Assembly (NCBI RefSeq): GCF_009914755.1
Contig: NC_060927.1
Length of the DNA stretch: 64,000 nucleotides
Strand: one strand, 5' to 3'
Source of the DNA: the human T2T-CHM13v2.0 reference genome, Homo sapiens
A program made the translations under genes and the position numbers. Below the pieces are notes generated by a model that was not told the DNA's origin, did no database searches, and saw nothing but the letters and a program-made list of their open reading frames with translations. Positions 11,629-43,143 of the stretch are shown here, piece after piece (position 1 is the first letter of the stretch; each line of letters opens with the position of its first letter).

Positions 11629-11784
11629 CCGGTGGTGGGATGCCCGGGAGGCCAGGCACACCTGGCGGAAGATGGTGGGGTGGAGGCCCCCCAGGGTGAA
11701 GTGGCTGCATGCTGCCCATGCTAACAAGGCCATCAACTGGGCCCTGCAAAGGTGGAAGGCCTGGCGGATAGCCACCCATCATGC
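11629..11784 (-). CDS. PBRM1: PBRM1 exon E27 (156 nt, phase 1-1 cassette)
   Basis: cttcaag|GC ATG ATG..., (G)MMGGYPPGLPPLQGPVDGLVSMGSMQPLHPGGPPPHHLPPGVPGLPGIPPP; donor CGG|gtaaga; 52 codons. Confidence 0.93.
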
Positions 11785-11809: not shown

Positions 11810-11865
11810 CATGCATCATTAACATGCAACATGAGCTAAGTAATAACAACCAACCCCCACATGCA
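11810..11865 (-). promoter_or_regulatory. Three RBFOX elements (UGCAUG) just upstream of the E27 3' splice site
   Basis: + strand catgca at 11810-11815, 11823-11828, 11860-11865. Confidence 0.75.
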
Positions 11866-14800
11866 CTACCAATGAATAAAGCACCCTTAGTACTGCATGA
11901 TATAACAGCAATTAGTGCAATTATTTTGCTGCAATAATGAACAAAATAAAAAGTTACAAATATGAGACCCAACATTTTGGGATGAATTAGTACTTAGTAC
12001 ACTATTATTTGTAGTTATTTTCCCTGGGGTAAATATGCTGCATGTTTTCAGTTAAATAATAGTAAAGAGTTCTAGTAACAGCCTTCCCAAGGAAATAATT
12101 ATTGCAAGCTGTTCAAACAGAGTGACCAGTTCTGCTGACTGCAATTCTAACTGAATAGTATAAACCCCATCATTCCACTCTGCCCACACTCATATGCCTA
12201 TCATGGGTACACATGAGGGGAAATAGGAAGGGAGGGAAATGAGCGCATAGTCCTGATCACAAAGCATGGTTCTCCAGCTTTGGGGCAGGAATTGTTCAAG
12301 ACTTCTACATCTACTCCTCCTTTCTAGCCTTACCACTGCTGGTAAGAATGGATTGTGCTTGGGCTTGAGTTGGGGAACAGCTTCTAAGAACCATCACAGT
12401 GAATGATATTTCCTTCTTTAGATCTAAAAATGTGATAAAGATAAAACCTAAACACTCCCAACCAAGCCAACCAAGTCCAGGTCACTCAGGAGCCTACACA
12501 CAGACTTTACGGAGGAATGGCTGGAGAATTGGGCTCTGCTGATATGAGAAAATGCCAAATGCCATCAGTCTCCAAGCTCAAATGTCCTCATATAAACCTT
12601 AACAGGGAGCATTTTAATTTGAGGTACACAATTTCTGTGAACAGAGGCTTTTATTCCTTTATTTTCAAAGTGTACCTACACATGACAAAATATTTTCTAC
12701 TGGCTAGAGAAGAGTTTCAGCAAACAAGTATTTTTGGCAGAAGGAATAAATGTAAGAAAAAAAATTCAAAATGTCAAGGACTCACCTATCAAAAGACCTT
12801 TAAAACCACATGGCATTTTTTTAAAACAAGAAAAACAACTTGACTTTTCTGGGATTTGTAATGATCATGATGAATAAGAACACAAAGCTCCCCCCAAAAT
12901 GCAGTCACCTTTGGTCACAGCTTCTTGCAAAGGGAGGGTTGAGGGACTGGTGCCAAACCTCATTTTTATAAAATACTCTTTGCAGAGGGACTCTGTCAAA
13001 TAGTGGAAAACTTCAGATTCTGAGAATTTTACTCTTGGACTTTCCCTGAAGATTTCAAACATATTTATTTATAAAAGTTTAGTCTTTTAAGGCTATGAAA
13101 TTACTAAAAATTCTGAGGTCGATTCACCCTGCTTCACTAGTCATACCTAAGCTGACTAACTTACAATTACATAAACCGAATGACAAAAATTTGAATAATA
13201 ATCTCTCTATACATAAGATTATGAGTTTTCATTTTTTTTTAAATGAAGAGTTCAGAAAGTAAAAACTACTTTTGAACAGACACCATCATCTTAATTAAAC
13301 ATGAAGAGATCCAATGCTACCAATCTTTTAACCACACCACCAGTTATAGCATTTAGGGTTAAGTAGGCGGGAAATTTAAGGATGTTAAGAGGCTTTGCTT
13401 TCAATTACAAAAGCCCATCTGAACGCAGCCTTCATGGGCTGTGGTTGAGGAAATTATTAAGAACTGAAAGACATGACACTTGTCTTCATTAAACTGTACT
13501 TTGGCATTTATTATCCCAGTCACATGTGTTCAAATGAGCTTCAATGCTTGTAAGCAAAGCTGGTCTCAAGACAGCAACAAGGCTAATAAGTAAGACTCAG
13601 GCCCTAAGAAACCTGTAAAACCATGAAAAATCACCCTCTTAGCTGCAGGGTTCCCCATGAGGACCAAAGAGTGGTTACTGCAGAGAATGCTTGCTTTTCA
13701 CTCCCAGGGCCCAGAAGTCTAGCCAGCACACCCTAAATAATGGAGCAGGGGCTTTCTAGAGGGACCACCTTCCTCATCCATAGAGTTCTATAATGTTCTT
13801 CCCCAACAGGGAGCTAAAATGCTGCAGCTGCTGTTTTTTTTTTTTTTTTAATTGTTTTTAGCTGTTTGTATTCATTTTGTTAATGTGCCCCTGGGTTTTG
13901 AAGTCAAGGGCACAGTGCCACAACGTCACACATCAAATAGAACAAAACACAATGTCAACGAGGGAATTCTAACTTTCAAAGTCCCCATGTTCAAGGCCTG
14001 ATTTCTAAAAACCTCTGGAACCCCATTAACCAAAATGGGCCATGGAATAGAGCAGGCGATTATGAGATTTGTTAGATCAACATCAGTTACACTGAAAGCA
14101 CTGAAAGCCATGATTCAGATGTGCTTTGGCGAGTGCAACTGCTGAGTTCAGCGACAGTGCATTTGAGAACTTGCCATCACAAAAGTTAGGAGCGACAATG
14201 GAAAAGTTATCCTATGCTACTCTTCCTTAAAAAGCAAAAACGAAACAGCAAAAACAGCATCCCAACAAGCCTGCCTTGAACAACACTATTTTGGACTCCC
14301 TGTGAAAGAGGTCAGACTGCTTGCTTAAGAAGAAACACAGGTGGCTTGTACAGACCTCACCAGGACTGGAGAGATCTCAAAGAAGGGGCCCGAGAAGTGG
14401 TCTGCAGACTTCTCATTGGAGACATGTCAGACAAAGATATTCAATTCAAGAACAGTCAAATTTGCTATGGCTACCAGAACCAGAGACAACACACACAGAC
14501 AAACCACATTCATCATTTTCTTTTTCTTTTTTTTTTTCTTAAATATGTGACTGGGATACTAACAGAAAATGCAGTTTAATGTAATTAAATAGAAAAGCAT
14601 TACAGAGTGGGCACAATGAATTGAATAAGGACTTTGTATTCTATTTAGCAGTCATGCACATTGGTGACCAAGAAAGGATTTACAATTCATTGTCAAAAAA
14701 TCCTTTTAAACGGTCAGTCTTTTAAGGATGGCTGCAGCAGAACAAGGCAAACTGAATACTGGAATGAGATGGGAAAATCAACACCACCTAAAGACTAGTT

Positions 14801-15153
14801 TTGTGTTTTCTCTTGGGAGTCCCTCTAGAACAGAATTCAGGGTCTACTTTCATATTTTCTGCTATAGTGCTCTATCAAGAGCAGGCTGGGGTGGAGAACA
14901 TCACCAGACCATGCCCACAGCCAGGGAAGAGCTGCTCCCTACCAATTACCAGGGTTGGGCCCAGGGCCCATTTCTGGGGCAGAAGGGAGGCATTGCCCAT
15001 ATGGGAAAGGCAATATAGGACAACATGGATGACTTCAAACTTTGAATCTGTCATGAGAAAAGGCAATAGACTGTGGCCTACTCCTTATTGGAGAAAAAAA
15101 AAATGAAGGAATTTCTTAAAGTGGAAAAAAATGGTCTTAGCTCCTGTTTTTAC

Positions 15154-15318
15154 CTGCAACAGGTGTCAACTGCTGATTGAGCATCCCCATTGGTGTTGGT
15201 GGTGGCACCACCCCCATGAGAGCCCCCACAGGGGTGCCTGCTCGGGGAGAAGCACTCGGCTGCTGTTGCTGTGCTGCTCGCTCTCTCTCCTGCTGCTCAG
15301 CAACTTTAGCTGCCCGCT
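15154..15318 (-). CDS. PBRM1: PBRM1 exon E26 (165 nt, phase 1-1 cassette)
   Basis: tttacag|AG CGG GCA..., (E)RAAKVAEQQERERAAQQQQPSASPRAGTPVGALMGVVPPPTPMGMLNQQLTPVA; donor CAG|gtaaaa; 55 codons, skippable in frame. Confidence 0.93.
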
Positions 15319-24040: not shown

Positions 24041-24599
24041 ATAAATGGTAGCATATCACTTAAAACTGTTTTGCATCTGAATTTTGTCACAAAATAATAT
24101 GTCTTGGAGGTCACGGCTTGTATGAATGTACTAAGTTTATTCAACTAGTTCCCTATTGATGGGTATCTATGTTGTTTCCCAATGTTTGCTCTTCTGCTGA
24201 CGCTAAATAATGCTGAAATAAATAATTTAAGACATATCAATTTGCACGTAGGTGAATACATCTGAAGCATAAATTTCTAGAACTATAAAAGCTGGGTTAA
24301 AGGGTATGTATACACTTTTTAAATTTTTGTAGGTATTATCAAACTGCCTTCCATAAAGGGTGTCCTAATTCACAGACTACCCACAAAGTAGGTAAATACC
24401 ATTTCCTCATGCTCTTGTCAACTAGTGAGAAATGTCTTCTGGATCTTTGACAATTTGATAGGTAATCTCAAAAAAAAAAAAAAAAGAAAAAAGAAAAAAA
24501 GAAAAATGAAAAAGAAAAGAAGAAAAGCACCTGGGTAGCTTTAACTAGCATTTCTCTAATGGCCAAGGTTGGGTATATTTTCTTTTCTTTTCTTTTTTG

Positions 24600-36221: not shown

Positions 36222-43143
<6,922 letters not shown>

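What the first reader, a model, noticed from the sequence alone, without database searches (positions are those of the whole stretch)
12780..12840. Candidate 12-nt neural-type microexon (or recursive splice site) between E26 and E27
Seen (sense): gttgtttttcttgttttaaaaaaaTGCcatgtggttttaaag|GTCTTTTGATAG|gtgagt. The exon is 12786-12797, with a near-consensus donor, a displaced pyrimidine tract and UGC at -16 to -18. In phase 1 it adds GLLI (…VA-GLLI-GMM…) without frameshift. Established: this architecture matches SRRM4/SRRM3-dependent microexons. Alternative: tttgatag|gtgagt is a back-to-back 3'ss/5'ss ratchet point.
Basis: partly seen in the sequence, partly recalled or inferred. Interest (0 to 1): 0.72.

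Follow-up and report, generated by a model that had tools for sequence, protein, structure and literature searches.

The report
Unannotated 12-base pseudo-microexon in PBRM1
A 12-base stretch inside a PBRM1 intron looks much like a brain-type microexon, but nothing available shows that cells use it, so it is most likely an unused look-alike.

Summary
TGC lies at -18..-16, a U-rich tract at -41..-26, and the insertion reads VA-GLLI-GMM in frame.

Loosely defined, such arrangements are common: about 3 per 64-kb strand in simulations, and 3 on the gene-less strand. Matched to the candidate on every feature they are rare, about 0.007 per 64-kb strand. That still means roughly 700 chance sites genome-wide, against 180 UGC-bearing neural microexons in the human catalogue one preprint used.

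The acceptor closely resembles the validated 12-nt LSD1/KDM1A neuronal microexon. It lacks a UCUC element and has no consensus branch point in its AG-free zone.

None of the 171 RefSeq PBRM1 transcripts contains this exon. The supplements I could read list only a 156-nt and a 45-nt PBRM1 event. Conservation and RNA-seq could not be tested here.

Odds:
- About 70%: a latent, non-selected splice-site pair.
- About 6%: a real microexon.
- About 7%: a recursive splice site.
- About 10%: a U1 decoy.

The parts
12786..12797 (-). Candidate 12-nt exon GTCTTTTGATAG. In phase 1 it would insert Gly-Leu-Leu-Ile.
12798..12799 (-). Candidate acceptor AG, in the context ttttaAAG|G with A at -3. It is the first AG after a 40-nt AG-free zone.
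12780..12785 (-). Donor GTGAGT. With the exon end it reads TAG|GTGAGT, 8 of 9 consensus positions. Joined to the upstream exon end it would read CAG|GTGAGT, 9 of 9, as the recursive reading requires.
12813..12815 (-). TGC (UGC) at -18..-16, the SRRM3/4-associated motif. It is the only TGC within -100..-1.
12816..12822 (-). A7 run at -25..-19, between the pyrimidine tract and the UGC. It is a possible weak branch region.
   Evidence: for the position; the branch-region reading is inference
12823..12838 (-). Displaced U-rich tract UUGUUUUUCUUGUUUU at -41..-26, 14 of 16 pyrimidines, with no UCUC.
12839..12850 (-). Three AG dinucleotides (G at -42, -47, -52). They separate the tract from the only yUnAy branch-point matches.
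12869..12877 (-). The only yUnAy matches in -110..-1: CTTAT with A at -78, and TTCAT with A at -74. Three YCAY (TCAT) motifs overlap them at -76, -73 and -67.
15154..15318 (-). Upstream 165-nt exon (exon 28 of 32). It ends ...GTTGCAG in phase 1 and has weak splice sites.
   Evidence: hub annotation
11629..11784 (-). Downstream 156-nt exon (exon 29 of 32). It is the alternative VastDB event HsaEX0045733.
   Evidence: hub annotation

Best explanation
This is a latent pseudo-microexon. A strong U1-type 5' splice-site consensus (TAG|GTGAGT) happens to lie 12 nt downstream of a weak AAG acceptor, and that acceptor happens to carry a UGC and an upstream U-rich tract. The pair sits deep in the 3.4-kb intron between two alternative PBRM1 exons.

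Shown: the sequence, its frame, its resemblance to real microexon acceptors, and its absence from the annotation and from the tables I could read.

Inferred: it arose without selection. It is not included in mature PBRM1 mRNA at levels that matter. At most it binds U1 snRNP, or is spliced at trace level or under forced SRRM3/4 expression, like the 'cryptic microexons' already catalogued in VastDB.
For: 1. No exon at 12786-12797 appears among the exons of the 171 RefSeq PBRM1 transcripts in the hub's table. That table does list ten other alternative exon forms in this window.

2. In Head et al. 2021 (PMC7935315; the tool reports 19 supplement files searched, file 16 unreadable) the only PBRM1 splicing events are a 156-nt exon and a 45-nt exon.

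3. The 12-mer is absent in both orientations from the supplement of an SRRM4-overexpression HEK293 study, PMC7697094.

4. No PBRM1 entry was found in the readable supplements of Li 2015 or Quesnel-Vallieres 2015.

5. The published neuron-specific PBRM1 event (Porter 2025, PMC11864812) lies elsewhere. None of its 6 PBRM1 primers maps in the window.

6. Base rate:
- The acceptor context alone passes at 47 of 9,039 AGs in the window. On the sense strand 19 pass, and only 1 is an annotated acceptor.
- AG-N10-AGGTRAGT occurs 15,298 times in the genome, fewer than its reversed control at 24,436.
- This gives about 80 chance sites for 12 nt and about 700 for the nine in-frame lengths.
- The comparison set is 180 UGC-bearing neural microexons in the human catalogue used in PMC12871342.

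7. No UCUC element and no yUnAy in the AG-free zone.

8. The insert would be hydrophobic (GLLI) in a Pro/Gly/Met-rich low-complexity stretch.
Against: - On the strict filter the arrangement is rare at window scale: 1 hit in 600 Markov simulations, and 0 on the antisense strand.
- The acceptor closely mirrors a validated SRRM4-dependent 12-nt exon. LSD1/KDM1A E8a also has TGC at -18 and an AAG acceptor.
- The donor is among the strongest in the window.
- The 141-nt surround folds less stably than 194 of 200 shuffles (z = +1.93). That agrees with the accessible branch-to-3'ss region reported for neural microexons.
- The flanking intron parts are short, 2.4 and 1.0 kb.
- All the negative expression evidence is indirect. 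Short-read aligners and annotation pipelines are known (recalled) to miss exons this small. I could not query VastDB, GTEx or any alignment.
- The tables I read list only differential or circRNA-overlapping events, not every event.
Confidence: 0.7

Rival explanations
1. It is a genuine SRRM3/4-dependent microexon that is still unannotated. In neurons, photoreceptors or endocrine cells, SRRM4 or SRRM3 would bind the UGC at -18..-16 and help U2AF and U2 engage the distant U-rich tract. The strong donor would recruit U1. The 12 nt would then be included, adding GLLI to the C-terminal low-complexity region of PBRM1/BAF180.
For: - Testable architecture features are met: length, frame, strong donor, a UGC between tract and AG, and a 40-nt AG-free zone.
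- The acceptor is close to that of the validated LSD1 E8a exon.
- The strict architecture is rare per window.
- The local RNA is poorly structured.
- PBRM1 does undergo neuron-specific splicing elsewhere in the gene.
Against: - It is absent from the 171 RefSeq transcripts in the hub's table and from every PBRM1 entry in the supplements read.
- There is no UCUC and no consensus branch point in the right zone.
- An estimated 700 chance sites exist genome-wide with equal or better features.
- The hydrophobic insert is atypical for the class; that judgement is recalled, not tested.
- Conservation is untested.
Confidence: 0.06
2. It is a recursive splice site, that is, a zero-length exon. The upstream exon would first be joined to the second AG (gatAG|GTGAGT at 12786/12785). 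That join regenerates a perfect CAG|GTGAGT donor, which is then spliced to exon 11784. The intron would leave in two pieces of 2,368 and 1,001 nt, with no trace in the mRNA.
For: - The site matches the minimal motif Y5+N0-4YAGGT (CTTTT-GA-TAGGT) used in PMC10156609.
- It is the only one of 21 sense-strand motif sites in the window that is followed by GTRAGT. None of the 27 antisense sites is.
- The regenerated donor would match 9 of 9 positions.
- Lariat-supported recursive sites in that study sit in introns with a median length of 3.4 kb.
- UAG is generally a better acceptor than the AAG 12 nt upstream; this is recalled.
Against: - That study supported only 100 of 202,395 motif sites, and for small introns it describes recursion as stochastic and infrequent.
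- Classic sawtooth-supported vertebrate sites lie in introns of 170 kb or more.
- The first AG after the tract is the AAG, which a scanning spliceosome would normally take; this is recalled.
- The proximal pyrimidine run is only 5 nt.
- No paper links recursive splicing to this PBRM1 intron. Of the 2 papers holding both terms I saw only the listing.
Confidence: 0.07
3. It is an unspliced U1-binding or decoy site with a regulatory side effect. U1 snRNP bound at TAG|GTGAGT, perhaps with U2AF at the upstream tract, would form a non-productive exon-definition-like complex. That complex could slow removal of this intron, bias the choice between the two alternative flanking exons, or suppress nearby cryptic poly(A) signals.
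For: - The donor consensus is strong.
- Both flanking exons are alternative. For 15154-15318 the only evidence is an extended form, 14557-15318, in the hub's table and its weak splice sites. The 156-nt exon has a PSI of 56-84% in healthy tissues.
- AATAAA lies at +123 and +131 and ATTAAA at +168 downstream of the donor.
- Decoy exons are a described mechanism; I saw only the abstract of PMC7373989 in a search listing.
Against: - AATAAA is common here, at 75 copies per 64 kb on this strand.
- There is no evidence of intron retention or of intronic polyadenylation at this spot.
- Any strong intronic 5'ss consensus would invite the same story.
- Nothing here shows selection.
Confidence: 0.1

Closest known systems
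SRRM3/SRRM4 (nSR100)-dependent neural microexons, for example the 12-nt LSD1/KDM1A exon E8a
   Same: - 12 nt and frame-preserving.
- An AAG acceptor, and a UGC at -18.
- A pyrimidine tract pushed upstream, with an AG-free stretch between the tract and the AG.
- A strong donor, as described for the class.
   Different: - LSD1 E8a has a UCUCUCUC run abutting two UGCs, and yUnAy matches at -29 and -36. The candidate has neither.
- LSD1 E8a is experimentally validated and annotated. The candidate has no expression support in anything I could read.
- Conservation is untested.
Cryptic microexons in VastDB (PSI under 10 in over 90% of samples), used as controls in bioRxiv 10.1101/2024.09.17.613571
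   Same: They are short AG...GT-flanked intronic segments, some with UGC or UCUC motifs, that are essentially never included. This is the category the candidate most likely belongs to.
   Different: I could not check whether this site is one of the catalogued cryptic events.
Vertebrate recursive splice sites (Sibley 2015, Zhang 2018, Wan 2021, and the lariat study PMC10156609)
   Same: A juxtaposed 3'ss and 5'ss, YAG|GT, with an upstream pyrimidine run. The site matches Y5+N0-4YAGGT and would regenerate a consensus donor.
   Different: There is no lariat, sawtooth or junction evidence. The intron is short by the classic criteria. A competing AG lies 12 nt upstream.
Known PBRM1 alternative events: the 156-nt exon HsaEX0045733 and the 45-nt exon HsaEX0045736
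   Same: They are in the same gene. The 156-nt exon is the immediate downstream neighbour, 11629-11784.
   Different: - Both are longer than the 27-nt microexon limit, and both are annotated.
- By the coordinate offset, the 45-nt exon lies outside the window at about 81,800.
- It may be the neuron-specific PBRM1 event of Porter 2025, but I could not confirm that.

Membership tests
SRRM3/4-dependent neural microexon | Exon of 3-27 nt that preserves the reading frame | tested here: met
   12 nt. In phase 1 it gives VA-GLLI-GMM with no stop.
SRRM3/4-dependent neural microexon | Strong 5' splice site | tested here: met
   TAG|GTGAGT matches 8 of 9 positions. Among the 14 annotated exons in the window that have a donor, one matches 9 of 9. 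No MaxEnt score could be computed.
SRRM3/4-dependent neural microexon | UGC between the branch point or pyrimidine tract and the AG | tested here: met
   TGC at -18..-16. The feature is present in 74-79% of SRRM3/4-dependent microexons.
SRRM3/4-dependent neural microexon | Pyrimidine tract and branch point displaced upstream, both strong, with a long BP-AG distance | tested here: inconclusive
   The tract at -41..-26 is 14 of 16 pyrimidines and the AG-free zone runs -41..-2. No yUnAy lies inside that zone; matches occur only at -78 and -74, beyond three AGs. SVM-BPfinder was not available.
SRRM3/4-dependent neural microexon | UCUC half of the bipartite intronic enhancer UCUCUC-N(1-50)-UGC | tested here: not met
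   0 TCTC/CTCT in -110..-1. The LSD1 control has six overlapping matches at -26..-21. The motif is described.
SRRM3/4-dependent neural microexon | Inclusion in neural or endocrine RNA that depends on SRRM3/4 | not testable with these tools
   No RNA-seq access. The indirect evidence is negative: the hub's table of 171 RefSeq transcripts.
SRRM3/4-dependent neural microexon | High conservation of the exon and its flanking intron across vertebrates | not testable with these tools
   No other vertebrate genome is held ('It has no relatives here'). The 301-nt and 1,001-nt surrounds are single-copy in the human assembly at the tool's sensitivity.
Recursive splice site | Motif Y5+N0-4YAGGT | tested here: met
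   CTTTT-GA-TAGGT. It is 1 of 21 sense-strand matches in the window.
Recursive splice site | A functional 5' splice site is regenerated after ligation to the upstream exon | tested here: met
   GTTGCAG joined to GTGAGT gives CAG|GTGAGT, 9 of 9, by sequence only.
Recursive splice site | Splicing intermediates: lariats, a sawtooth read profile, or exon-to-site junction reads | not testable with these tools
   No nascent or total RNA data are available here.
Recursive splice site | Located in a very long intron (the classic vertebrate criterion) | tested here: not met
   The intron is 3,369 nt. Sawtooth sets have medians of about 550 kb, with minima of 170 kb or more. The lariat study does find sites in introns with a 3.4-kb median.

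The most novel reading that the evidence does not exclude
PBRM1/BAF180 has an undiscovered 12-nt microexon, switched on by SRRM3/4. In neurons, photoreceptors or endocrine cells it would insert Gly-Leu-Leu-Ile between the two alternative C-terminal exons, giving the PBAF chromatin remodeller a cell-type-specific tail. When the second AG is chosen instead, the same site would act as a recursive ratchet.
Probability: 0.06. Interest if true: 0.5.

Novelty: not a real feature. Interest (0 to 1): 0.15.

Why it matters
If it were real, it would add a cell-type-specific isoform to a major tumour-suppressor and chromatin-remodelling subunit. PBRM1 is already on a published list of chromatin regulators with neuron-specific splicing.

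As it stands, the case is mainly a calibration. A sequence-only match to the microexon layout can be close enough to resemble the validated LSD1 exon, yet several hundred such matches are still expected by chance in a 3-Gb genome. Calls of this kind therefore need junction reads or conservation before they count.

Tried and rejected
- **Published PBRM1 neuronal event.** I asked whether the event in Porter 2025 is this exon. It is not: 0 of 6 PBRM1 primers map in the window, even with 4 mismatches or as 14-nt halves with 1 mismatch. The paper's two supplement files hold no 'PBRM1' text. The event's position appears only in a figure that I cannot see.
- **Irimia 2014 tables.** The paper is not held under the PubMed id or the PMC id I recalled.
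- **Supplement of PMC12871342 (human microexon sets).** The file is too large to read.
- **Li 2015 and Quesnel-Vallieres 2015 supplements.** No PBRM1 entry was found. One file of each was not searched, and the readable text is small (69 k and 43 k characters), so the full event tables were probably not covered.
- **Repeat origin.** The 301-nt and 1,001-nt surrounds match only themselves in the assembly. The tool skips common words, so an old diverged repeat is not excluded.
- **Whole-genome pattern with a run of 10 pyrimidines.** It returned 370 overlapping matches against 88 for the control. The candidate's longest run is 8, so the pattern does not describe it, and I did not use the count.
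- **Protein search for an isoform carrying the 4-residue insert.** Not run. The database is clustered at 90% identity, so such an isoform would be hidden, and the query would have had to be a joined sequence.
- **Rbfox reading of the TGC.** Rejected: the context is TGCCATG, not TGCATG.
- **Literature.** These searches found nothing about a 12-nt PBRM1 exon:
  - 'PBRM1' + 'microexon': 5 papers.
  - 'PBRM1' + 'SRRM4': 6 papers.
  - 'PBRM1' + 'recursive splicing': 2 papers.
  - 'PBRM1' with cryptic, pseudo or poison exon terms: top 15 of 335 seen.
  - One search was uninformative, because none of its 15 listed papers holds PBRM1.
Full report
**What is there**

On the minus strand, which is the PBRM1 sense strand, the window reads gttgtttttcttgttttaaaaaaatgccatgtggttttaaag|GTCTTTTGATAG|gtgagt.

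- The 12-mer occupies 12797..12786.
- The acceptor AG is at 12799-12798 and GTGAGT at 12785..12780.
- The site lies in the 3,369-nt intron between the 165-nt exon 15154-15318 and the 156-nt exon 11629-11784. It is 2,356 nt from the first and 1,001 nt from the second.
- The upstream exon ends in phase 1. Splicing the 12-mer in gives ...TPVA-GLLI-GMMGG... with no stop. The other two phases give VF** and SFD.
- TGC sits at -18..-16.
- A U-rich tract, 14 of 16 pyrimidines, sits at -41..-26, followed by an A7 run at -25..-19.
- The nearest upstream AGs have their G at -42, -47 and -52, so the AG-free zone is 40 nt long.

**Is it more than chance?**

The answer depends on the definition. I used a loose filter and a strict one.

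The loose filter asks for a GTRAGT donor, an AG 3-27 nt upstream, a TGC at -5..-40, and a 12-nt window with at least 10 pyrimidines.

| Sequence | Sites passing | In-frame length |
|---|---|---|
| Sense strand | 2 | 1 |
| Antisense strand, no gene | 3 | 3 |
| 200 Markov simulations per order | 8.9-9.2 (mean) | 3.0-3.3 (mean) |

About 92% of the simulations contain at least one in-frame site.

The strict filter asks for features as good as the candidate's on each count:
- an AG|GTRAGT donor;
- an in-frame length of 3-27 nt;
- a TGC at -8..-30;
- at least 11 of 12 pyrimidines upstream of that TGC;
- no AG in between.

Only the candidate passes on the sense strand, and nothing passes on the antisense strand. 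In 300 simulations per Markov order the means are 0 and 0.003.

Markov sequence under-represents pyrimidine tracts, so I also made a real-sequence estimate.
- The acceptor context alone passes at 47 of 9,039 AGs in the window, both strands counted. On the sense strand 19 pass, and only one (7542) is an annotated acceptor.
- AG-N10-AGGTRAGT occurs 15,298 times in the whole assembly, fewer than its reversed control at 24,436.
- Multiplying gives about 80 chance sites for a 12-nt exon.
- If the other eight in-frame lengths behave alike, that is about 700 sites, or about 0.007 per 64-kb strand.

The arrangement is therefore unusual for one window but expected hundreds of times in the genome. The strict thresholds were set after seeing the candidate, which flatters it.

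**Comparison with the real class**

Passages of two preprints describe SRRM3/4-dependent microexons as follows (PMC12871342; bioRxiv 10.1101/2024.09.17.613571).
- They are 3-27 nt long and usually frame-preserving.
- They have strong 5' splice sites.
- Their pyrimidine tract and branch point are strong but displaced upstream. The median predicted branch-point distance is 45 nt, against 34 nt.
- They carry a bipartite enhancer, UCUCUC-N(1-50)-UGC.
- 74-79% have a UGC between the branch point and the AG.
- The branch-to-3'ss region is accessible.
- The exon and its flanks are highly conserved.

The candidate compares as follows.

| Feature | Candidate |
|---|---|
| Length and frame | Met |
| Strong donor | Met (8 of 9; one annotated exon in the window has 9 of 9) |
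| UGC position | Met |
| Displaced tract | Met |
| UCUC element | Not met (no TCTC/CTCT in -110..-1) |
| Branch point in the usable zone | Not met (yUnAy only at -78 and -74, beyond three AGs) |

The 141-nt surround folds worse than 194 of 200 dinucleotide shuffles (z = +1.93). That agrees with accessibility but is weak evidence.

**Positive control**

I located the 12-nt LSD1/KDM1A neuronal exon as a positive control.
- I derived its 12-mer from the isoform-specific primer of Porter 2025. It encodes DTVK, as that paper's Figure 5 legend states.
- I searched the assembly for it.
- One of three matches is on chromosome 1. I take that one to be KDM1A; the chromosomal assignment is recalled.
- Its acceptor has TGC at -18 and -15 and an AAG acceptor, much like the candidate's, and it passes my acceptor filter. 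The two chance matches fail it.
- Unlike the candidate, it has a UCUCUCUC run and yUnAy matches at -29 and -36. Its donor (gtattt) is weak.

The resemblance is real but incomplete, and this is one control only.

**Evidence on use**

I found none in favour.
- The hub's table of 171 RefSeq transcripts lists ten other alternative exon forms in the window, but nothing at 12786-12797.
- Head 2021 (PMC7935315) lists two PBRM1 splicing events. The tool reports 19 supplement files searched, with file 16 unreadable.
  - HsaEX0045733 is the 156-nt exon, with a PSI of 56-84% in healthy tissue.
  - HsaEX0045736 is a 45-nt exon that falls outside the window.
- The supplement of an SRRM4-overexpression HEK293 study (PMC7697094) holds the 12-mer in neither orientation.
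- The readable supplements of Li 2015 and Quesnel-Vallieres 2015 hold no PBRM1 row.

These tables list differential or circRNA-overlapping events only, and some files were unreadable, so the negative evidence is indirect.

Porter 2025 counts PBRM1 among 14 chromatin regulators with neuron-specific splicing (the PBRM1 primers are). None of its six PBRM1 primers maps in the window, so that event lies elsewhere in the gene.

RNA-seq, VastDB and cross-species alignments could not be consulted. No other vertebrate genome is held.

**Weighing**

The catalogue used in PMC12871342 holds 276 neural and 554 non-neural human microexons, 180 of the neural ones with a UGC. Only a fraction of these would also pass my donor and tract thresholds; LSD1 E8a itself fails the donor test.

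About 700 chance sites are expected. I estimate that perhaps a fifth lie in the sense strand of introns, using a recalled figure for how much of the genome is intronic.

Before looking at annotation, a strict-architecture site might therefore be real with a probability of the order of 10-20%. Real microexons in a well-expressed gene that carries 171 transcript models are mostly annotated already. Absence from the annotation and from the tables brings this down to roughly 6%.

**The recursive alternative**

The site matches the minimal motif Y5+N0-4YAGGT (CTTTT-GA-TAGGT). It is the only one of 21 sense-strand and 27 antisense motif sites in the window that is followed by GTRAGT. Joining it to the upstream exon would regenerate CAG|GTGAGT.

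The lariat study PMC10156609 found supported sites in introns with a median length of 3.4 kb, so intron length does not exclude recursion. That study confirmed only 100 of 202,395 motif sites, and it describes recursion in small introns as stochastic. The AAG 12 nt upstream is the first AG after the tract. I give this reading about 7%.

**Conclusion**

The most likely reading, at about 70%, is a latent, non-selected splice-site pair. It probably binds U1, and it might be spliced at trace level or under forced SRRM4 expression, like the 'cryptic microexons' already catalogued in VastDB. I give a regulatory decoy role about 10%. Junction-read counts and conservation at the coordinates given under next steps would settle the matter quickly.

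Noticed in passing
window 11815-11870, minus strand: Three of the 12 sense-strand TGCATG (Rbfox-type) hexamers in the whole window cluster at 11865, 11828 and 11815. That is 31-81 nt upstream of the alternative 156-nt exon 11629-11784 (VastDB HsaEX0045733), and it is the only such cluster. A position upstream of the exon would fit Rbfox-mediated repression. One preprint reports a radial-glia-enriched Pbrm1 exon in an Rbfox study, and a review cites Pbrm1 as an additive NOVA/RBFOX target. I could not confirm that either refers to this exon.
   Followed up: partly
window 15154-15318, minus strand: The 165-nt exon has the weakest splice signals among the annotated exons of the window. Its acceptor has 9 of 17 pyrimidines at -20..-4, and its donor CAG|gtaaaa matches 7 of 9. 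This fits an alternative exon. The hub's table also lists an extended form, 14557-15318, that runs into the intron.
   Followed up: no
window 42878-42890, minus strand: A second site passes the loose microexon filter: a 13-nt segment, ccag|CCTGGGCAACAGA|gtgagtct, which looks like the 3' part of an Alu. It is out of frame.
   Followed up: no
window 12612-12663, minus strand: AATAAA lies at +123 and +131 and ATTAAA at +168 downstream of the candidate's donor. AATAAA is frequent on this strand, at 75 copies per 64 kb, so this is probably chance.
   Followed up: no
window 12864-12876, minus strand: Three YCAY (TCAT) motifs lie at -76, -73 and -67 upstream of the candidate, overlapping the only yUnAy matches. 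This is a NOVA-type cluster by motif only.
   Followed up: no
L002 (G000:C1:22891726-22891737): The LSD1/KDM1A 12-nt neuronal exon has a weak donor (AAG|gtattt). This departs from the general statement that microexons have strong 5' splice sites.
   Followed up: no
whole assembly G000: AG-N10-AGGTRAGT occurs 15,298 times. The same pattern read backwards occurs 24,436 times, so the splice-like string is under-represented relative to its reversed control.
   Followed up: no
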